DNA of 64,000 nucleotides from Nitrospiraceae bacterium (GTDB lineage: Bacteria; Nitrospirota; Nitrospiria; Nitrospirales; UBA2166), in assembly GCA_002726235.1 (NCBI GenBank), contig PBSN01000008.1, positions 386,635 through 450,634 on the forward strand, read 5' to 3'. This document shows positions 3,001 to 15,000 of the stretch, piece by piece; the stretch's first letter is position 1; each line of letters begins with the position of its first letter. Position numbers: made by a program.

Positions 3001-6000
3001 GCCTGATAAACGGGAGCATCCATATCAAAACTCAAATCCCCAATGCAAGTCAGCGCGTGACATTTGATACATACGACATGCAACTAGAATTCGATAAGGG
3101 TTTTCAAACACCCATGACGGATATTCTAGACCTCAACGGCATTTATACGCGTCTTCATGCGTCAGATTGGACGGATGTCAGCGCATTGAAACAACTTGAG
3201 GCATACCACCGGACTTGGGCAATACCAGCAGCATGCCTAATCTTTGGATTCATTGGTGTTCCGCTCGGTGTTCGCTCCGGCGTTGCTGGCCGGATCGGAG
3301 GACTTGGCGTGGGCGTTGCTGGCATCCTCTTTTACTACCTGCTCAACATCTTTGGCGATTTCTTAGTATCCACGCGTACCATGACCCCATGGATCGCGGC
3401 GTGGCTTCCCAATGCCATCTTTATTGTGTTATCCGCATTTCTCTTCCGCTTGGTCTTGCCTTCCGCACCTCAACTGAGGTATCGCTGAGAGAGGATTGAC
3501 GCATTGGCAATCTGGCTTTTAGATCGATACCTCATATCCAAATACCTCAGGATTCTGGGTATTGCAACGACGGCATTGCTCTCAATTTACCTGACCATTG
3601 ATTTTGTTGAGCAGATACGTAAATACTTAAAAGATGACACTCAACTTCTTGATATAATTAGCTATTTAGGGCTTAAGATCCCTGCTATCATTTATCAACT
3701 AACTCCCCTTGCCATCTTACTCGCGACGCTTATCACGCTTGGAACCCTCTCGTACGACAATGAAATTACCGCCATGCGAGCGGGCGGTATCAACCTTTGG
3801 CGTATTACTGCCTCCTTCCTTATCTTTCCATTGGCCCTCAGCCTTCTTCTGCTCGCAGCCGATCATTCGTTGCTTCCAACCACAAATGACCGAGCCCACT
3901 ATGTGCGAACGACTGTTCTTGAACAACATCCCGAGCAAGCGCTTTTCACACAAAACCGTATTTGGTTGCGAGTATCAGCAAACACTTTCATGAATGTGCA
4001 ACTTGTTGATCTTAGTCAGTCAACGCTCTTTGGGATTAGTTTGTATCGGCTCAGCCAGGACTTCGCGTTGCAAGAGATGATTGACGCGCAAGAACTTCGA
4101 CACGATAACGATCAATGGATACTGATATCTGGCATCAAGAGACATTTTCTTGACGACGGGAGAATCCAAACGATCCCGTTTTATCAGGAACCCGTTGACT
4201 TGAAATATGAGCCACTCGAACTTAGGAAGCGGTTAACCATCACGCCTGACAATCTGACCCTACCAGAGCTTGCAAACTATATTGATCGTTTAGAAGAAAG
4301 CGGATACCCCTCGTCCAAATACTCCGCGAATTACTATGGCCGGTACGCTTTTCCTTTTGCTTCTCTTGTTATGGCGATACTTGGGATTTCCATCACCATG
4401 ATGGAACTCAGAACTCGTAGAAAACACTTTGCACGAAGCATAGGATTCACGCTCCTTATTGGGTTTCATTATTGGATCATTCATTCATTTGCCATCGGAA
4501 TAGGCCGTGGTGATGTGATACCTCCAGCGGTCGCAGGATGGACTGCGAACACCCTCTTCCTTACTATTGGATTTTTTCTCATGTCACGAATCCGTCAGTA
4601 GAGGCGGTTGCAAAAGTCCATCACACCAATGTTATCGTCCCATTGTCGTTTTCACGCACTCCATATACACTTACGCGCCGACGACCCTGAAGTCTTGCGG
4701 TCAAGAATTTTAGCCCCCCCCCATAATACTCCTGACACTTGAGAGAATTAAAACCTTCTAAAATTTGTGACTTCGAGTCGTCGCTGGGCCTTTCAAAAAG
4801 CCGTGTTCTGGCAGAAAACTAAGAGGATGCTTCCATGAAAATTTACAATTTATGGAAAGCATATTATGGCCATTCTGAAAAAAGCGCAGGCTGAATTGTC
4901 TATTTCAAGGTCATATCAAAATTGATGAGCAGGAGGCGAAAAGGAATATGAGGATTGATCGTAAACCTGAATAGCTTGAGAAGCCTCGAATAGTTTCGAC
5001 CAGACATCACTCGGATCAGGATTAAAAATAAAATTCGCATCCCCTTGCAATAGATGCCATGCACCTTGTGCCATCTCAGATGCAAGTTGACCTGGGGACC
5101 ACCCCGCATGACCTGAATAGACTCGCAGTACCCCTTCAAGTGCAGAACTGTCACGAAGCGGCTGAAGCACATCGAAACTCGTGCTCACGTAAACATCCGA
5201 AAATACGTGTTGTCCATCCTGGAGCTTCTCAGGATAGCGAAAGAGAAAAATTGGGTTTTCCATGGCAACAGGCCCACCGAAATACAACATCAAATCTACG
5301 CCCCTTAATGCAGTTACCTGTGGCAGTGCTTGAGAAAGAGAGATATCTCTGGGACGATTAATAATGACTCCGTGCGTTCCATGTTCCCCGTGATTCCACA
5401 ACAATACAACCGTCTGCCGAAAATACGGATCACTCATCGCTGAATCCGCAATGAGAAATACTCCTGGCTGAATAGAGGGATTCTCCACGCTTGGAAAGGC
5501 GTCTGCAGACACACCCTGACCAAGGAGCAAAAAAAGAGTGGCACACACGACACGACAGTACTGTTCAACATTTGCACCTCGACACATGAACATTAATCAA
5601 TACGGACCGGCCAAGGCACATCTTTCAAGACATAAGTCGCAAGGCGTTTTGCCATCTCAATTTGCTTCCCAGTATCATTTTCGTTCAAAACATCTCTCAA
5701 CCCTTGACCAAATAGCTTATCCCTCACCAAGATAAACTGAAGCTCTTCAGCTGCCGAGACATGCCACAGACCTCGCAGGCGAAACCAAGAGAAGACGACC
5801 TGGTCAAGAAAAGTCGGTAATAGATATCGAGCACGATCTGGATGATCGGTCGCCTCTTGCATCTTCCCAAGCCAATGGTAACACTCTGCTTTCAGAGATA
5901 TTTTTTCATTAACAGAGGGGTAGGGAGGACCCTGTCGAAATCGCCGAGTAGCCACGTCTAGAATTTTCGAAGCGATCCCATCGCGCTCAAACAATACTCG

Positions 6001-12000: not shown

Positions 12001-15000
12001 TCCGCATGTTTGACTGGCCTGCTGTTTGTCCCATCCGACCACTCCCAATCCAAAGGATCACTAGTCCAAGCAGGAGAATAATGAGGAAAAAACCGCGTCG
12101 CAATGGTGGACTACTATTTCAAGCTCTCAAGATATGTCGTAATTGCTGTGATAGCATCCTCAGAGAGATTGAAGTCTGGCATAAACGTTCCCTCGATGAT
12201 ATCGTCGGGGTTCCTCAACCAGATATGCTCCCATTCCCGATAAATCTTACTCCCAACATGGGTCAGGTCGGGATACATCGCCCGACCACCTCCAGCCTCC
12301 CCTTCCCCTATTGTATGACAGGCTCGACAATCATAGGCATTGACCAACACTTCTCCTGCCGCAATGTTCGCACCCCCGTGTTGAGTGATAACAGCCGCGA
12401 CATCAGGCGGCGTTGCAGTGGACATAAGAAACGCGGCAATGTCAGCAGATTGTTGTAGGTTTTCCCATGGAAATTGCGGCATCGGCGTCTCTGGATAAAT
12501 CGATCGCGGTTCATTCACAAATTCGAAAAGATGGTCTTCCGACCTGCGCAACCCAACCTCGGTAAGAGTTGGACCGACTCTTCCACCTGCCAACAATTTA
12601 GAACCATCTGGTTGTGCTTCATACAATGCCTCATGGTCAATGATATGACAATTTACGCAAAGGCTCTTCTTATACAGTTCTACACCCTTTACGGGATCTC
12701 CAACCAGCGGTTGCTCCTCCGCAAATCCAATAGTTCCCCCTAGGAACATGCCACTCAACAATACAGCAGCCCCGACATACCATATTCCTGTCCAGCGCAT
12801 GGAATCGTGTTTCTGTTGCTTCATTGCCACCCTCCTCTAGCAAAGAATTAACGACGTACTATCCGCCCAAGTTTAACAACTCACGTACCGTATAATAGCA
12901 AACTCGCTCGCCCAAAGGGATAAAAAAAGGGGGAGAAGATTTCTTCTCCCCCCCCCTTTTTTTCTAGCACTCAGTTGAAACAGGAAACGCGATCTTACAT
13001 GGCACCTGCAACCGGACCAGCCGGTAGAATTTTCTTGGCACCTGGTTTCCACTTCTTCCCTTTGCTAAAAGACGAGATATAGTTCGCAAGATCGACTGAG
13101 GCCTGAGTGTTTTGATCAATCCATTGGCCTTTGTTGAACGCCGAAATGCACATATTGTTCATAGCCGGAAGGTTCACCATAAACCCACGACGCGGCCCGC
13201 GTGGCTTCGGAAAGCTTACCGCAGCGCCTTTGAGGGTCGGAATCGACAATTTCGGACGAAACACGAATCCACCGGGTTTAATGACCTCAGTTGTAGCTGC
13301 CCCACCAATTGATCCTCCACCTTCATGACAACTCGCACAACTTTGTCCGGCATTCCCATTACCAAGCGTTGGATCGTGATAGATCTTCTTGCCTCGCTCC
13401 AACGAAGCTTCCATGGTATCTGGGGCGCTATTTTGCATTGCCTTCATTAACTCAGCCACCTCTGCATCCGACAAATACGGATCCGCCATCATTCTGATAT
13501 CTATGGGCTTAGCGTTGGCTAATTTCGCTTCCATTGAATCGGCCCCAATTCCTTTACCGGCACCAGCCGTTGTACCTCCACCTGCACATGACGCGAAAGC
13601 AAACAGAGGTATGGCTAAGAGACTGATATATCGTTTCATTTCATCCTCCCATTGTCAGAGATCCTTAAGAACCTCATACCATTACCACATCTTTGCTTAT
13701 GGCAAGGTTGGCTTACCACCCGGCTCATACCGCTTTCCTTTGCTCAAACTGGCAACATAGGACTCAAGATCAATCGCCTGGTGAGAATTTCTGTTTAAAG
13801 GTTTCCCCTTCAAAAATGTCATCAGGCACATGTTGTTCATGCCAGCGAGGTCAGTGACGACCTTCATCGGACCTCGCACGGCCGGAAAATGCGCAGCAGC
13901 ACCCTTCAGGGTAGGAATGGCCACCTGCATGGCCTGTCCTTTCCACTTCATCTCTGTCGCACCCCCAACCGATCCACCACCTTCATGGCAACTCGCACAA
14001 CTTTGCCCAGTGGTGTTATGCCCTAGCTTTGGATCATTGAACATTTTATTACCGGCTTTAACAGAATCCTTTAATGTCACGATGTCCATGTCAGCCATGG
14101 TACCCATCCCAACCATGCCGGTTTCCGGTGACAACAACTTCATCCCCGGAAGAGACGCTGCTCCAGCATACGTAACCACCCCGAGCAATATCGCGACGCT
14201 CCCCAAAAGCAAAATAACTTTTGCCATTTTCATCGCATTCCCCCTTAGGTTGGTAGATTACATCGCCCCAGGAATTGGAGTCGGGACGATCTTTTTTCCG
14301 CCAATTTTATACCGTTTTCCCTTGCTGAGAGACCCTATATAAGTCTGAAGATCGACAGCCGGCCGCATGTTTTTGTTCAACGGCAAGCCCTTCATGAAGG
14401 TCATAATGCACATGTTATTCATGTCCCCAAGATCAGCAATCCGCTTCATCGGACCACGAATAGCGGGGAAATTCACCGCAGCGCCTTTCAAGGTTGGAAT
14501 GGCAACCATCATTTTCATGCCCTTCCAATTCATTTCCGCAGCGCCGCCGACCGATCCACCACCACTATGACAGGTTGCGCAAGACTGGCCCGTCTCGTTC
14601 TTACCCAACTTGGGGTTATTGAACATCTTTTCCCCACGCATTAACGAAGCTTCAAGGGTGTCTGGCTTCATGTTCATCATCATTTCTTTCATCTTCATGA
14701 CTTTCTCTTTCGGGATATATGGGTCCGGCATTGCCCCCTTCATACCCTCGCCGGCTATCGCATACAGCGACACCCCAAAGACTGCAACCGCAATCGCGGC
14801 ACTGATCAAAACTACTTTCTTACTCATCAGCTGACGTCCTCCCTTCTTGATCCTGAATTAATTGAACACAAATCTCTACCAATTTACGTCACACCAGAGT
14901 GTAGCAACGCTCACGCAACATCATATATCATTAGTGATATAGCACACAAAAGTACCACACGAAATTCAGGCTTGTCAAGAAATGAATATCCTTCCTCAAA

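What a model noticed while it worked through the whole genome (the two positions that open the first line are those of the whole stretch)
5593..14827. SoxYZ sits in a 12-gene cytochrome and beta-propeller cluster with SoxX- and SoxA-like haem proteins but no SoxB
Twelve co-directional genes hold SoxY (ending ..VGGC, the cysteine being the last residue), SoxZ, two di-haem SoxX-like cytochromes, three paralogous 180-214-aa mono-haem proteins with weak SoxA likeness (CxSCHEGGGSxGGA), one more cytochrome c and three beta-propeller proteins (YVTN, Ycf48/BNR, PDIAV-type); no SoxB or SoxCD is found. I read it as a self-contained, SoxB-independent sulfur-oxidising module in which a beta-propeller protein takes over release of the oxidised sulfur from the SoxY carrier, feeding electrons to cytochrome c. 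New would be a variant Sox pathway and an electron donor for the uncharacterised family UBA2166.
Evidence so far: NCBIfam: g00963 SoxX 88.6 bits (cut 61), g00965 SoxX 59.7; g00966/67/68 SoxA 23-32 bits (cut 110); g00961 SoxZ 47 bits, g00962 SoxY 45 bits (below cuts); Pfam SoxY, SoxZ, SoxA-TsdA_cyt-c rows; sequences and C-terminus; CxxCH counts. g00963 homologue and its paralogue found side by side in 4 of 5 UBA2166 genomes (74-93% id) and in 0 of 116 other Nitrospirales at E<=1e-20. PMC12342949 reports only soxYZ for UBA2166 and says the other sox genes were not found. SoxB model TIGR04486 matches in 0 of 5 UBA2166 genomes. A scan of 185,579 species genomes with the three SoxA-like paralogues found full-length relatives only in 7 Nitrospirota MAGs; in three inspected loci, two of them only 43-66% identi [...]
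(Added by a program. Inside this text positions count along the whole contig: contig position 386,635 is position 1 of the stretch shown here. "Call 12" and the like, gene names such as g00115 and contig names such as C1 are that model's own, and its searches are not shown. The text may have been shortened before it was handed on; [...] marks where a part breaks off. The agent that wrote the report below was given it as the finding of a first reader that could run no searches.)

Follow-up and report, generated by a model that had tools for sequence, protein, structure and literature searches.

The report
Iron-site SoxY carrier, SoxB-free cytochrome cluster
A conserved gene cluster of a marine Nitrospirota bacterium joins SoxA/SoxX-like cytochromes and three propeller proteins to a sulfur-carrier protein (SoxY) that unexpectedly also carries the complete iron-binding site of a superoxide reductase, and it does so without the usual release enzyme SoxB.

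Summary
Eleven tightly packed minus-strand genes (6567-14827) encode three mono-haem SoxA/TsdA-type proteins, two di-haem SoxX-like cytochromes, SoxY ending in GGC, SoxZ, one more cytochrome c and three beta-propellers. The twelfth gene (5593-6561) looks cytoplasmic and is not part of the conserved core. SoxB was found in 0 of 5 genomes of the family and over cut-off in 0 of 5 other cluster-bearing genomes.

The 'SoxY' is a hybrid. It keeps SoxY's Tat signal, terminal Cys arm and SoxZ partner, and it also has all four His and the Cys that bind iron in superoxide reductases. Its best solved relatives, by sequence and by fold, are SORs. This SoxY* family has at least 331 clusters, and my searches found no description of it.

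Elsewhere SoxY*Z sits beside SoxB-like, YeeE-like, DsrE2 and rhodanese genes, so a sulfur role is well supported. A propeller replacing SoxB is not supported:
- YVTN co-occurs with a SoxB-like gene.
- Ycf48-like travels with the haem pair where SoxYZ is absent.
- Only the BNR propeller has a compatible distribution.

Verdict: a new variant of a Sox-type system, release step unknown. Interest 0.78.

The parts
14258..14827 (-). A1, 189-aa mono-haem SoxA/TsdA-type cytochrome (CATCH, conserved MNNMC cysteine), Sec signal
13697..14233 (-). A2, 178-aa mono-haem SoxA/TsdA-type cytochrome. Cys136 aligns with TsdA Cys96, and the AF2 model is closest to TsdA and SoxA.
12995..13639 (-). A3, 214-aa mono-haem SoxA/TsdA-type paralogue with a lipoprotein-type signal (..FASC)
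12930..12956 (-). Terminator-like G+C-rich hairpin followed by a T run, in the 164-bp gap between A3 and X1. It may be a boundary between transcription units or an attenuator.
   Evidence: consensus scan only
12114..12830 (-). X1, 238-aa di-haem SoxX-like cytochrome c (SoxX model 59.7 bits, cut 61)
10769..12103 (-). BNR444, 444-aa BNR/Asp-box (sialidase-like, PDIAV-type) beta-propeller with an N-terminal signal or anchor. In the loci inspected it is present only in clusters that have both A/X and SoxY*Z.
9899..10729 (-). X2, 276-aa di-haem SoxX-like lipoprotein cytochrome c (SoxX model 88.6 bits, cut 61)
9355..9867 (-). SoxY*, 170 aa (or 159 aa from the next ATG). It has a Tat signal (RR), a SoxY-like fold ending in GGC, and a complete SOR-type Fe ligand set (H71, H95, H101, C151, H154, plus E68).
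8943..9332 (-). SoxZ-like partner, 129 aa, with no signal peptide of its own
8475..8933 (-). 152-aa mono-haem cytochrome c. A relative follows soxZ in the second clade too.
7526..8509 (-). YVTN327, seven-bladed YVTN beta-propeller with a signal peptide. A ring of H,H,M,M,H,D,H occupies the same position in each of the 7 blades.
6567..7529 (-). Ycf48-like BNR beta-propeller lipoprotein, 320 aa. It travels with the A-X pair even where SoxYZ is absent.
5593..6561 (-). 322-aa co-directional neighbour. It has no signal peptide and a nucleotidyltransferase-fold lead, and it is probably not part of the module.

Best explanation
This is a periplasmic sulfur-compound oxidation module made of two evolutionary units that the UBA2166-type Nitrospirota have joined.

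Unit 1 holds the mono-haem A proteins (SoxA/TsdA-type catalytic haem with His/Cys ligation), a di-haem SoxX-like partner and a Ycf48-like propeller. It oxidises thiosulfate or a related sulfur anion and passes two electrons to c-type cytochromes.

Unit 2 holds SoxY*-SoxZ, cytochrome c152 and the YVTN propeller. It is a sulfur carrier. The substrate sulfur is bound covalently to the C-terminal Cys170 of SoxY*, as on canonical SoxY. SoxY* also holds a redox-active mononuclear Fe(His)4Cys centre of the superoxide-reductase type, which the neighbouring cytochrome c can address.

Electrons leave through the cytochromes to the bd-like oxidases of the genome. SoxB is truly absent, so the carrier must be unloaded another way. 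I think the most likely route is release as sulfite, finished by the genome's SorAB-like sulfite dehydrogenases. Less likely is hydrolysis by the BNR propeller.

Shown:
- gene content and conserved order;
- the SoxA/TsdA nature of A, with the ligand Cys;
- the SOR ligand set, the terminal GGC and the Tat motif of SoxY*;
- the absence of SoxB;
- the sulfur context of SoxY*Z relatives.

Inferred:
- that A-X loads SoxY*;
- that iron is bound;
- what the iron does;
- the release route;
- every role given to the propellers.
For: **A proteins**
- A profile of 45 family members hits SoxA 1h31_A (E 1.5e-16) and TsdA 4wq7 (E 4.6e-15). The nearly invariant family Cys (C136 of A2) aligns with TsdA residue 96 of the chain and with the Cys of both SoxA domains.
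- The AF2 model (pLDDT 88.5) is closest to TsdA (ranks 1-9) and SoxA (2c1d_A, rmsd 1.9 A over 115 columns).
- The only three PF21342 matches in the genome are these genes.

**X proteins**
- SoxX model 88.6 and 59.7 bits.

**SoxY***
- Pfam SoxY 60.6 bits and Desulfoferrodox 44.6 bits (cut 22.2) on the same residues.
- Best solved sequence relatives are the neelaredoxin 4brj (E 7.8e-5), ahead of SoxY 4uwq_B (E 1.5e-3). H71, H95, H101, C151 and H154 align with the SOR motifs H-x-P, HPxxxxH and CNxHGxW, which Thermus SoxY lacks.
- With the family profile the values are 5.7e-6 against 5.7e-5.
- Foldseek top 5 are SORs (E about 1e-7), followed by SoxZ and SoxY 2ox5 (about 1e-5).
- Among 23 aligned members E68, H71, H95, P96, M97, H101, C151, H154, G168, G169 and C170 are invariant.
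- 109 of 123 family members keep all four features and 121 of 123 end in GGC.
- A canonical SoxY from a soxXYZAB locus of the same phylum ends GGCGG and has none of the SOR motifs.
- PF01880 does not ring in the Thermus control genome, while PF13501 does.

**SoxY*-SoxZ pairing**
- Score 0.89, best of 3 controls 0.00. That mark was reached by 116 of 157 solved complexes and 2 of 215 mismatched pairs.
- The runs agree in at least 98% of contacts, and partner pLDDT is at least 84.
- Residues 169-170 lie in the interface.
- SoxYZ complexes are solved, so this shows likeness and may come from memory.

**Sulfur context of relatives**
- Clade 2 loci read [DsrE2 306 bits][YeeE/TsuA-like] YVTN - SoxY* - SoxB-like (TIGR04486 400.7 bits, cut 550) - SoxZ - cyt c.
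- Nitrospirota family f21: SoxY* - SoxB-like - SoxZ - YeeE.
- Family f16: SoxY* - SoxZ near rhodanese and YeeE-DUF302.

**Conservation**
- The same order is kept in L008, L009, L010, L030, L031 and L034, down to 40-66% identity.

**Sink and finishing enzymes**
- Two cytochrome bd-like genes and no COX1.
- Three SorA-like genes, one followed by a 122-aa mono-haem cytochrome.

**RNA libraries**
- Contigs of RNA libraries from 3 studies cover pieces of most genes at 99% identity or more. This shows presence only.
Against: - Every Sox equivalog score except X2 is under its cut-off.
- The A family and SoxY* are distributed independently. In a sample of 401 Nitrospirota genomes, SoxY* matched in 11, one of them a canonical SoxY. 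Strict A orthologues (165 bits or more) occurred in 4. Only the own genome has both.
- L011 and L012 have A-X-Ycf48 with no SoxYZ within the 7-20 kb held for them (I did not search their whole genomes for SoxY*), and clade 2 has SoxY*Z without A/X. So A-X need not act on SoxY*.
- No enzyme for unloading the carrier is identified. There is no SoxB, no SoxH-like MBL protein, no YeeE and no SoxC over cut-off.
- By the model's secondary structure, the Fe ligands C151 and H154 and the arm (167-170) lie at opposite ends of the last strand. A direct intramolecular action of the iron on the arm-bound sulfur is therefore not obvious. I could not measure distances, because no coordinates were available.
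- Iron binding is inferred from sequence only.
- The SOR Glu-Lys-His motif has one extra residue here (E-K/R/Q-L/I/M-H).
- The RNA-library contigs do not prove transcription.
Confidence: 0.5

Rival explanations
1. Two functionally separate systems that merely share an operon. A-X (+Ycf48-like) would be a carrier-independent, split TsdA-like thiosulfate:cytochrome c oxidoreductase (thiosulfate to tetrathionate), or run in reverse as a tetrathionate reductase. SoxY*Z-cytochrome c-YVTN would be an independent sulfane-sulfur carrier or trafficking unit.
For: - The best structural matches of A are TsdA, ranks 1-9.
- The A profile aligns over the whole catalytic domain of TsdA, including the ligand Cys.
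- A-X-(c)-Ycf48 occurs without SoxYZ in L011 and L012.
- Strict A orthologues occur in 3 sampled genomes that gave no SoxY* match.
- SoxY*Z occurs without A/X in clade 2 and in families f16 and f21.
- A terminator-like hairpin lies between the A genes and the rest.
Against: - The joined arrangement A-A-X-BNR-X-Y*-Z-c-YVTN-Ycf48 is kept in order down to 40-66% identity in at least three lineages (L009, L010, L031).
- A second SoxX-like gene (X2) sits directly upstream of soxY*.
- TsdA is one di-haem polypeptide, whereas A is mono-haem and needs a partner, as SoxA does.
- Nothing in the genome is known to use tetrathionate further.
Confidence: 0.25
2. One reading: a self-contained SoxB-independent Sox pathway in which a beta-propeller hydrolyses the oxidised sulfur off SoxY. 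On my data the only candidate left is the BNR/sialidase-like propeller BNR444.
For: - SoxB is absent from the own genome, from 0 of 5 family genomes, and over cut-off from 0 of 5 other cluster-bearing genomes.
- In the loci inspected, BNR444 occurs exactly in those clusters that have SoxY*Z but no SoxB-like gene (L008, L009, L010, L030, L031). It is missing where a SoxB-like gene sits between soxY* and soxZ.
- The BNR_2/sialidase fold is a hydrolase fold.
- From memory, no call: tetrathionate hydrolase is a beta-propeller enzyme, which gives a distant precedent.
Against: - BNR444 has no significant solved relative (best E 0.041). It belongs to large generic clusters of uncharacterised BNR proteins.
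- The A/X genes show the same complementarity with SoxB-like as BNR444 does, so the pattern does not single out BNR444.
- YVTN co-occurs with SoxB-like.
- Ycf48-like occurs without SoxYZ.
- The nearest solved relatives of these two are an S-layer protein, hydrazine synthase beta and Ycf48 assembly factors.
- The sulfane sulfur would also need oxidising, and no SoxCD is present over cut-off in this genome.
Confidence: 0.12
3. A periplasmic oxidative-stress system. SoxY* would be a Tat-exported superoxide reductase (the predicted 'TAT-SOR' class). It would be fed with electrons by the c-type cytochromes, and the CCP/MauG-like haem proteins would remove peroxide. Sulfur chemistry would be secondary or absent.
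For: - The complete SOR ligand set and the conserved Glu are present, SORs are the best solved relatives, and there is a Tat signal.
- SORGOdb predicted seven Tat-secreted SORs (PMC3116461, passages).
- A periplasmic SOR is discussed for a vent Sulfurimonas (PMC10066037, passages).
- The A proteins also give weak CCP_MauG hits of 20.8-27.7 bits.
- The genome has no COX1.
- A divergent RpoH-like sigma gene lies upstream.
- Peroxiredoxin, AhpD-like or thioredoxin genes lie near L010, L011 and L012.
Against: - It does not explain the terminal GGC, kept in 121 of 123 members, or the obligatory SoxZ partner.
- It does not explain the SoxB-like gene between soxY* and soxZ, or the DsrE2, YeeE and rhodanese neighbours in three other lineages.
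- The A proteins keep the Cys haem ligand of SoxA/TsdA, which peroxidases lack.
- The RpoH neighbour is kept only in the closest relatives.
Confidence: 0.1

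Closest known systems
Canonical Sox system (SoxXA, SoxYZ, SoxB, with or without SoxCD), e.g. 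Paracoccus pantotrophus and Rhodovulum sulfidophilum
   Same: - A periplasmic carrier pair SoxY-SoxZ with a Tat signal on SoxY and a cysteine on a C-terminal Gly-Gly arm.
- A His/Cys-haem SoxA-type protein next to a SoxX-like cytochrome.
- c-type cytochromes as electron acceptors.
   Different: - No SoxB in any genome examined, and no SoxC over cut-off here.
- SoxA-like proteins are 178-214-aa single-domain mono-haem proteins in three copies.
- SoxX-like proteins are di-haem, in two copies.
- SoxY ends GGC rather than GGCGG and carries an SOR iron site.
- Three beta-propellers are interleaved.
- All equivalog scores but one are below cut-off.
Thiosulfate dehydrogenase TsdA / TsdBA (Allochromatium vinosum 4wq7, Marichromatium purpuratum 5lo9)
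   Same: - It is the best structural match of the A proteins.
- The catalytic domain aligns over about 110 residues, including the haem-ligand cysteine.
- A di-haem partner cytochrome (TsdB) is the analogue of X.
   Different: - TsdA is one di-haem chain, whereas A is mono-haem.
- TsdA needs no carrier protein.
- No propellers or SoxYZ are associated with tsdA (from established knowledge, not tested here).
Superoxide reductases of the neelaredoxin type (Ignicoccus hospitalis 4bk8/4brj, Thermotoga maritima 2amu) and the predicted 'TAT-SOR' class of SORGOdb
   Same: - The fold and the Fe ligand motifs H-x-P, HPxxxxH and CNxHGxW.
- A conserved Glu before the first His.
- A Tat signal, as in the TAT-SOR class (PMC3116461 passages).
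   Different: - SoxY* ends in an invariant GGC arm, is always encoded with SoxZ, and lies in sulfur gene contexts.
- The Glu-Lys-His motif has one extra residue.
- NCBIfam neela_ferrous scores 27.8 bits (cut 61.9).
- I did not test whether the SORGOdb TAT-SOR proteins belong to this family. Their alignment is in a supplementary figure that I did not open.
Quinoprotein-dehydrogenase-associated relay of the ped/xox clusters (fused SoxYZ-like carrier TIGR04557, PQQ-associated YVTN propeller TIGR03866/PedA2, cytochrome c550 PedF, rhodanese, SoxH-like hydrolase)
   Same: - An uncharacterised periplasmic set in which a SoxYZ-like carrier, a YVTN seven-bladed propeller and a small cytochrome c are encoded together.
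- YVTN327 scores 192.6 bits on TIGR03866. SoxY* and SoxZ score 43.6 and 46.9 bits on TIGR04557, and cytochrome c152 gives 19.7 bits on PedF.
- The ped cluster table was seen in PMC12997753 (passages).
   Different: - All scores are below cut-off.
- There is no PQQ dehydrogenase, ABC transporter or SoxH here.
- The carrier is not fused and bears the SOR site.
Proposed SoxB-free Sox variant of Sulfurimonas sp. CVO (Lahme et al. 2020, known to me only through PMC11237559)
   Same: A Sox-type carrier system said to work without SoxB (PMC11237559 passages).
   Different: - There SoxH is proposed as the substitute.
- This genome has three MBL-fold proteins, and none resembles SoxH in NCBIfam.

Membership tests
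SoxY, canonical (NCBIfam TIGR04488 SoxY_true_GGCGG) | Score at or above the curated cut-off (125 bits) | tested here: not met
   44.6 bits. Pfam SoxY PF13501 is met at 60.6 bits, cut 28.4.
SoxY, canonical (NCBIfam TIGR04488 SoxY_true_GGCGG) | C-terminal GGCGG swinging arm | tested here: not met
   It ends ...VAVGGC, with Cys last. 121 of 123 family members end GGC. A canonical Nitrospirota SoxY (L069) ends GGCGG.
SoxY, canonical (NCBIfam TIGR04488 SoxY_true_GGCGG) | Tat signal, Ig-like fold and a SoxZ partner encoded next to it | tested here: met
   - RR motif.
- SoxY and SoxZ chains are among the fold matches.
- soxZ lies 22 bp downstream.
- Complex score 0.89 against best control 0.00, with the caveat that SoxYZ is a solved complex.
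SoxY, canonical (NCBIfam TIGR04488 SoxY_true_GGCGG) | Covalent binding of sulfur intermediates on the arm cysteine | not testable with these tools
   Needs mass spectrometry of the protein.
Superoxide reductase, centre II domain (Pfam PF01880 Desulfoferrodoxin) | Family score over cut-off | tested here: met
   PF01880 44.6 bits, cut 22.2. It is the only match in the genome, and the Thermus control (canonical SoxY) is silent. NCBIfam TIGR00332 is not met: 27.8 bits, cut 61.9.
Superoxide reductase, centre II domain (Pfam PF01880 Desulfoferrodoxin) | Four His and one Cys iron ligands | tested here: met
   - H71, H95, H101, C151 and H154 align with the motif residues of 4brj and 2amu.
- They are invariant in 23 of 23 aligned members.
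- That these motif residues are the ligands is recalled from the SOR literature, not from a call.
Superoxide reductase, centre II domain (Pfam PF01880 Desulfoferrodoxin) | Glu-Lys-His motif (Glu as sixth ligand of ferric iron, Lys next to the His) | tested here: inconclusive
   E68 is invariant and residue 69 is K, R or Q, but one hydrophobic residue is inserted before H71.
Superoxide reductase, centre II domain (Pfam PF01880 Desulfoferrodoxin) | Iron content and superoxide reductase activity | not testable with these tools
   Needs the purified protein.
SoxA (NCBIfam TIGR04484) / SoxA-TsdA cytochrome domain (Pfam PF21342) | Score over cut-off | tested here: not met
   TIGR04484 scores 29.5, 32.3 and 23.3 bits, cut 110. 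The Pfam domain PF21342 is met for A1 (35.2) and A2 (40.7) but not for A3 (25.8), cut 27.
SoxA (NCBIfam TIGR04484) / SoxA-TsdA cytochrome domain (Pfam PF21342) | Haem with His/Cys axial ligation: a conserved Cys about 50 residues after CxxCH | tested here: met
   The family Cys (C136 of A2) is nearly invariant in 45 sequences. It aligns with residue 96 of the TsdA chain and with the Cys of both SoxA domains of 1h31. That TsdA Cys96 is the haem ligand is recalled. Actual ligation is not testable here.
SoxA (NCBIfam TIGR04484) / SoxA-TsdA cytochrome domain (Pfam PF21342) | Fold of the SoxA/TsdA catalytic domain | tested here: met
   Foldseek: TsdA E 1.2e-5; SoxA 2c1d_A with rmsd 1.9 A over 115 columns.
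TsdA | One polypeptide with two haem domains | tested here: not met
   A1-A3 have one CxxCH each and 178-214 residues.
SoxX (NCBIfam TIGR04485) | Score over cut-off (61 bits); mono-haem | tested here: inconclusive
   X2 scores 88.6 (met) and X1 scores 59.7 (just under). Both have two CxxCH, unlike classical SoxX. Solved SoxX 1h31_B matches only at E 0.0015.
Complete Sox thiosulfate-oxidising system | SoxB thiosulfohydrolase present | tested here: not met
   - 0 matches in the own genome, which is 90.65% complete.
- 0 of 5 family genomes.
- 0 of 5 over cut-off in other cluster-bearing genomes.
Ycf48/HCF136 (Pfam PF14870) | Family score; seven-bladed BNR propeller | tested here: met
   PF14870 195 bits. 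Solved Ycf48-like proteins match at E 7.7e-25. The NCBIfam equivalog is not met: 160.2 bits, cut 326. A photosystem II role is impossible to assume here.
YVTN beta-propeller (TIGR02276 repeat) | Seven YVTN repeats | tested here: met
   199.6 bits over 7 stretches. 1l0q_A matches at E 6.1e-51.

The most novel reading that the evidence does not exclude
SoxY* is a new kind of sulfur carrier that does part of the chemistry itself. Its superoxide-reductase-type Fe(His)4Cys centre would be re-reduced or re-oxidised through the adjacent cytochrome c. It would oxidise carrier-bound sulfane sulfur, using O2-derived species or as a one-electron relay. The sulfur would then leave as sulfite or sulfate without SoxCD, and, in the Nitrospirota version, without SoxB. 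The SoxA/TsdA-like haem proteins would load the carrier and the propellers would form the scaffold of a cytochrome-propeller complex resembling hydrazine synthase in architecture. This would be a previously unknown, widespread (marine Gammaproteobacteria and Nitrospirota) branch of sulfur oxidation, and an unexpected evolutionary bridge between SoxY and superoxide reductases.
Probability: 0.15. Interest if true: 0.95.

Novelty: new variant of a known kind. Interest (0 to 1): 0.78.

Why it matters
- UBA2166 is the only Nitrospirales family without nitrite oxidoreductase, and its energy source is unknown. The one paper that discusses it saw only soxYZ and 'not the remaining sox genes' (PMC12342949, passages). 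This cluster supplies SoxA/TsdA- and SoxX-like partners that standard models miss. With the SorAB-like genes it makes sulfur-compound oxidation a testable electron source. An AioA-like arsenite oxidase is a rival source.
- The carrier is the more general point. A family of at least 331 sequence clusters is annotated at random as 'SoxY' or 'desulfoferrodoxin'. It joins the SoxY swinging arm to a full SOR iron site and is common in marine MAGs.
- If the iron is real, either sulfur carriers can be redox-active, or periplasmic superoxide reductases use a SoxYZ scaffold. Either would change how sox and sor genes are read in metagenomes.
- It also links two protein families that share a fold and have been treated as unrelated.

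Tried and rejected
- The YVTN search in the 5.8-billion-protein collection was swamped by generic YVTN proteins of 41% identity or less, and no orthologues surfaced. The ring of H,H,M,M,H,D,H looked like a special metal site. But M-H-D-H in blades 4-7 is common to the wider subfamily: the pattern NYAMHDH occurs in 42 of the 78 homologues of 300-370 aa that I aligned. It is a family trait, not a feature of the Sox-linked proteins, and I make no metal claim.
- BNR444 against solved structures gave nothing significant (best E 0.041). The ESM Atlas gave only generic BNR/sialidase-like clusters.
- X2 against solved structures gave only weak hits: mitochondrial-type cytochrome c at E 1.1e-4 and SoxX at 1.5e-3.
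- The A-family profile at E 1e-12 across the phylum picked up the whole SoxA/TsdA/CCP-like superfamily (140 of 401 genomes). It was useful only after restriction to 165 bits or more.
- NIR_SIR matches (826-aa and 1013-aa frames) were not followed up. I make no claim about DsrAB.
- I looked for a SoxH-like substitute for SoxB. The three MBL-fold genes are lactonase-, glyoxalase-II- and RNase-Z-like.
- The RpoH-like sigma factor as regulator is rejected, because it is a neighbour only in the closest relatives (L006-L008).
- The promoter scan gave no enrichment: 14 found against 14.6 expected.
- RNA-library contigs leave bins 6906-7958 uncovered in all four runs. This is no evidence of silence.
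- PMC11033732 is cited by PMC12342949 for soxYZ in these organisms, but its main text holds neither 'soxYZ' nor 'UBA2166'. I did not open its supplements.

Full report
**1. What is in the sequence**

Between 5593 and 14827 twelve ORFs lie head to tail on the minus strand. Gaps run from -35 to +57 bp, except for one gap of 164 bp between 12830 and 12995. In order of transcription they are:

| Gene | Coordinates | Size and features |
|---|---|---|
| A1 | 14258-14827 | 189 aa |
| A2 | 13697-14233 | 178 aa |
| A3 | 12995-13639 | 214 aa |
| X1 | 12114-12830 | 238 aa, two CxxCH |
| BNR444 | 10769-12103 | 444 aa |
| X2 | 9899-10729 | 276 aa, two CxxCH |
| SoxY-like | 9355-9867 | 170 aa |
| SoxZ-like | 8943-9332 | 129 aa |
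| cytochrome c152 | 8475-8933 | 152 aa |
| YVTN propeller | 7526-8509 | 327 aa |
| Ycf48-like propeller | 6567-7529 | 320 aa |
| unnamed | 5593-6561 | 322 aa |

Read directly from the translations:
- All products except SoxZ and the 322-aa protein begin with a signal peptide.
- A3, X2 and Ycf48-like have a lipobox.
- SoxY has a twin-arginine motif.

The 164-bp gap holds a strong terminator-like hairpin on the coding strand (12930-12956). The three A genes may therefore be a separate unit or attenuated.

The 322-aa protein has no family hit and is missing from the more distant syntenic loci. The ESM Atlas places it with nucleotidyltransferase-fold proteins (score 0.96, a lead only). I do not count it as part of the module.

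**2. Is the arrangement real and conserved?**

A scan of the species-genome collection with the three A paralogues returned 15 loci.
- Seven loci, all Nitrospirota MAGs, hold full-length relatives.
- The other eight match only the haem-motif stretch.

tblastn of all window proteins on these loci gave:
- L008 has the complete cluster with both flanks.
- L009 and L010 have the order A-A-X-BNR-X-SoxY-SoxZ-c-YVTN-Ycf48 at 40-66% identity.
- L011 and L012 have a minimal A-X-(c)-Ycf48 set without SoxYZ.

Metagenome loci L030, L031 and L034 repeat the full order.

Within the order Nitrospirales, X2 and its paralogue occur in 4 of 5 genomes of the window's family, own genome included. They occur in 0 of 126 other genomes sampled.

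**3. The haem proteins**

The A family is rare. It has 56 representatives at E 1e-10 or better among 1.84 billion proteins.

In an alignment of 45 members the haem motif is invariant. A cysteine about 50 residues later (C136 of A2, motif MNN-x-C) is nearly invariant.

The family profile hits solved structures:
- SoxA of Rhodovulum (1h31_A), E 1.5e-16.
- TsdA of Allochromatium (4wq7), E 4.6e-15.
- In the printed alignments the family cysteine falls on residue 96 of the TsdA chain and on the cysteine of both SoxA domains.
- That TsdA Cys96 and these SoxA cysteines are the axial haem ligands is recalled from the literature, not from a call.

The AF2 model of A2 (pLDDT 88.5) is closest to TsdA (Foldseek ranks 1-9) and to SoxA (2c1d_A, rmsd 1.9 A).

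The A proteins are therefore single-domain members of the SoxA/TsdA catalytic haem family. The equivalog model fails because they are a third shorter and very divergent. No other PF21342 match exists in the genome.

X1 and X2 are 43% identical di-haem cytochromes. They give SoxX-model scores of 59.7 and 88.6 bits. Their solved relatives are only weak.

**4. The carrier is a SoxY/superoxide-reductase hybrid**

The same residues of the 'SoxY' match two Pfam models: SoxY (60.6 bits) and Desulfoferrodoxin (44.6 bits, cut 22.2).

Against solved chains the order of hits is:

| Query | Ignicoccus neelaredoxin 4brj | Thermus SoxY 4uwq_B |
|---|---|---|
| single sequence | E 7.8e-5 | E 1.5e-3 |
| family profile | E 5.7e-6 | E 5.7e-5 |

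The alignments place H71, H95, H101, C151 and H154 on the motifs H-x-P, HPxxxxH and CNxHGxW of the SORs. In Thermus SoxY these positions are other residues.

The spacings are 24, 6, 50 and 3 residues. They resemble those I recall for the Fe ligands of Pyrococcus SOR (25, 6, 64, 3) and Desulfoarculus SOR (20, 6, 41, 3). These numbers are recalled.

The AF2 model has a core pLDDT of about 88-95 and a mean of 74.6 because of the signal peptide. Its five best fold matches are SORs (E about 1e-7), followed by SoxZ and SoxY of Paracoccus (about 1e-5).

Conservation in the family:
- All 39 homologues of a first search keep HPMxxxH and CNxH and end in GGC. 32 of the 39 show RR.
- In 23 aligned members E68, H71, H95, P96, M97, H101, C151, H154, G168, G169 and C170 are invariant.
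- A profile search found 331 clusters. Of the 123 sequences I examined, 109 have all four features and 121 end in GGC.

Two controls:
- A canonical SoxY from a soxXYZAB-type locus of another Nitrospirota genome (L069) ends GGCGG and has none of the three motifs.
- The Desulfoferrodoxin model is silent in the Thermus control genome, where the SoxY model rings.

The predicted SoxY*-SoxZ complex passes:
- Score 0.89, best of 3 controls 0.00. The mark was reached by 116 of 157 solved complexes and 2 of 215 mismatched pairs.
- The runs agree in at least 98% of contacts, and partner pLDDT is at least 84.
- Residues 169-170 lie in the interface.
- SoxYZ complexes are solved, so this shows likeness and may come from memory.

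Public annotation of family members is split among 'SoxY', 'desulfoferrodoxin family protein', 'twin-arginine ... protein' and 'hypothetical'. Many come from marine Gammaproteobacteria or Thiotrichales MAGs.

**5. Is this known?**

- SORGOdb predicted seven Tat-secreted SORs ('TAT-SOR') and does not mention SoxY (PMC3116461, passages).
- Full-text searches gave one unrelated paper for 'SoxY' + 'desulfoferrodoxin' and none for 'SoxYZ' + 'superoxide reductase'.
- A 2024 survey of 1,634 SoxY sequences holds the words 'desulfoferrodoxin' and 'superoxide' nowhere in its main text (PMC11237559, term search and passages).
- 'UBA2166' occurs in one paper of the library. That paper reports soxYZ homologues, a TauE transporter and two sulfite-oxidase-family enzymes, and says the remaining sox genes were not found (PMC12342949, passages).

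Within the reach of these searches the hybrid is undescribed. Subscription journals and supplements were not searched.

**6. What the relatives' neighbourhoods say**

A metagenome scan with the SoxY* alignment gave 33 loci. I compared the 21 loci of 2.5 kb or more.
- Three repeat the window's cluster.
- Eighteen belong to a second clade whose proteins end KVAAGGC.

In the second clade:
- A 426-452-aa YVTN-type propeller lies directly upstream of soxY* in 16 of 18 loci. The other two loci begin at soxY*.
- soxZ lies about 1.7 kb downstream in 13.
- A cytochrome c follows in 12.

The 1.7-kb gene was examined in two loci by Pfam (Metallophos + 5_nucleotid_C) and in one by NCBIfam. It is SoxB-like: 400.7 bits on TIGR04486 (cut 550), against 165.6 bits for the next family.

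Around it lie DsrE2 (306 bits, over cut-off), a YeeE/TsuA-like transporter, DUF302, SCO1 and thioredoxin-like genes. In L036 a rhodanese and DsbD are present.

In a sample of 401 Nitrospirota genomes SoxY* matched in 11: 6 of 6 in family f16, 3 of 3 in f21, the own genome, and one weak match that is the canonical SoxY above. Their contexts are:
- f21: SoxY* - SoxB-like - SoxZ - YeeE.
- f16: SoxY* - SoxZ near rhodanese, YeeE-DUF302 and a YeiH-like permease.

SoxY*Z thus lies in four different gene contexts, and three of them outside the window's kind of cluster carry sulfur-trafficking or Sox genes. This is the strongest argument that the carrier role is kept.

**7. What this means for the propellers and for 'SoxB-independent'**

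SoxB is absent:
- 0 matches in the own genome.
- 0 of 5 in the family.
- None over cut-off in five further cluster-bearing genomes.

Also absent from the own genome are a SoxH-like hydrolase, YeeE and a SoxC over cut-off. L009 does have a true SoxC fragment (381 bits over 235 residues) with a cytochrome gene 9 kb upstream of its cluster.

The propeller idea fails on distribution for two of the three:
- YVTN accompanies SoxY*Z together with a SoxB-like gene in clade 2.
- Ycf48-like accompanies A-X where there is no SoxYZ.

Their solved relatives are not hydrolases:
- YVTN327: an S-layer protein (E 6e-51), hydrazine synthase beta (E 1.5e-22) and YncE/PedA2-type proteins.
- Ycf48-like: Ycf48 assembly factors (E about 1e-24).

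BNR444 is found only in clusters that combine A/X with SoxY*Z and lack a SoxB-like gene. That is compatible with a substitute role. But the A/X genes show the same pattern, and BNR444 has no informative relative.

One resemblance is worth noting. Hydrazine synthase joins a CCP/MauG-type haem subunit with a YVTN propeller. Its gamma subunit 5c2v_C is hit by the A profile (E 2e-6) and by the A2 model (rank 12). Its beta subunit is hit by YVTN327. The propellers may simply be structural subunits of a cytochrome complex.

**8. Independence of the two units**

- Strict A orthologues (165 bits or more) occur in 4 of the 401 sampled genomes: G000, G148, G207 and G346.
- None of the three foreign ones is among the SoxY* holders.
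- No A/X gene lies beside SoxY* in the f16 and f21 loci inspected. Four of those genomes do give weak superfamily matches of 63-72 bits to the A profile elsewhere.

Only the UBA2166-type organisms, and those of L009, L010 and L031, combine the two. This weakens the simple 'SoxAX loads SoxYZ' reading and keeps alive a TsdA-like, carrier-free role for A-X. Against that stand the conserved joint order and the second SoxX-like gene directly before soxY*.

**9. Electron sink and other donors**

- The genome has no haem-copper oxidase match and two cytochrome bd-like genes. Completeness is 90.65%.
- It has three SorA-like sulfite dehydrogenase genes, with a best SorA score of 422 bits (cut 600). One is followed by a 122-aa mono-haem cytochrome.
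- It has an AioA-like arsenite oxidase large subunit over cut-off: 428.8 bits, cut 359.

**10. Expression**

Contigs of four metatranscriptomic libraries from three studies match pieces of the cluster from A1 to SoxZ and beyond, nearly all at 99% identity or more. Contigs show presence in an RNA library, not transcription. No control stretch could be laid.

**11. Verdict**

A SoxB-free, Sox-related periplasmic sulfur module is a fair description, but the role given to the propellers is not supported.
- The more remarkable feature, an SOR iron site built into the SoxY carrier, was missed.

I rate the system a new variant of a known kind. The mechanism is open at two points: what the iron does, and how the carrier is unloaded.

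Noticed in passing
own genome, contig C13 about 60673-63366 (locus L065:1105-3798): An 897-aa molybdoenzyme scores 428.8 bits on the arsenite oxidase large-subunit model TIGR02693 (cut 359.05). It is a possible alternative electron donor system for this NXR-less Nitrospirales family.
   Followed up: partly
own genome, contig C20 16498-18276; also C25 64511-65665 and C6 41980-43242: There are three SorA-like sulfite-oxidase-family genes (SorA model 235, 197 and 422 bits, cut 600). The one on C20 is followed by a 122-aa mono-haem cytochrome c, a SorAB-like pair. Two further, shorter PF00174 matches lie on C8.
   Followed up: partly
own genome, C7:100846-101583 and C8:275810-276547: Two 605-650-aa frames match only the first 240 positions of cytochrome bd subunit I. 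No COX1 match exists in the genome. This recalls (from memory) the bd-like putative oxidases described for Nitrospira.
   Followed up: no
window 7526-8509 (YVTN327): The residue before the Gly at the start of each blade's inner strand forms the series H69, H111, M153, M195, H237, D279, H321. M-H-D-H in blades 4-7 is shared by most of the 78 generic 300-370-aa homologues I aligned. This may be a conserved metal or active site of a large uncharacterised YVTN subfamily.
   Followed up: partly
loci L046, L047, L036, L038, L043 (metagenome), propeller upstream of soxY*: The clade-2 propeller (426-452 aa) has conserved GNHH, PLHVGF, GPHN and several Cys motifs. It is encoded with an SCO1/SenC copper-chaperone-like gene and DUF302. 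This hints at a copper enzyme and was not tested.
   Followed up: no
locus L009:38-1370: A true SoxC fragment (381 bits over the C-terminal 235 residues) with a cytochrome c gene (SoxD-like position) and a sigma-54 activator lies 9 kb upstream of the cluster. In that genome no SoxB was found.
   Followed up: partly
window 15168-16130 (+): An RpoH-like sigma-70 family factor (NF005143 254.6 bits, cut 241) is transcribed divergently from A1. It is a neighbour only in the closest relatives (L006-L008).
   Followed up: partly
window 4916-5593 (-): A YqgE/AlgH-family (DUF179) gene overlaps the stop of the 322-aa gene by one base. It begins with a hydrophobic, signal-like N-terminus, which is unusual for this family.
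   Followed up: no
window 11796: Contigs of two RNA libraries of one sample (X17, X19) lack one base at 11796, inside BNR444. This may be a strain variant, an assembly error or a frameshift allele.
   Followed up: no
PMC12342949 reference 131 (PMC11033732): The paper cited for the earlier observation of soxYZ in these organisms holds neither 'soxYZ' nor 'UBA2166' in its main text. The statement may rest on its supplements, which I did not open.
   Followed up: partly
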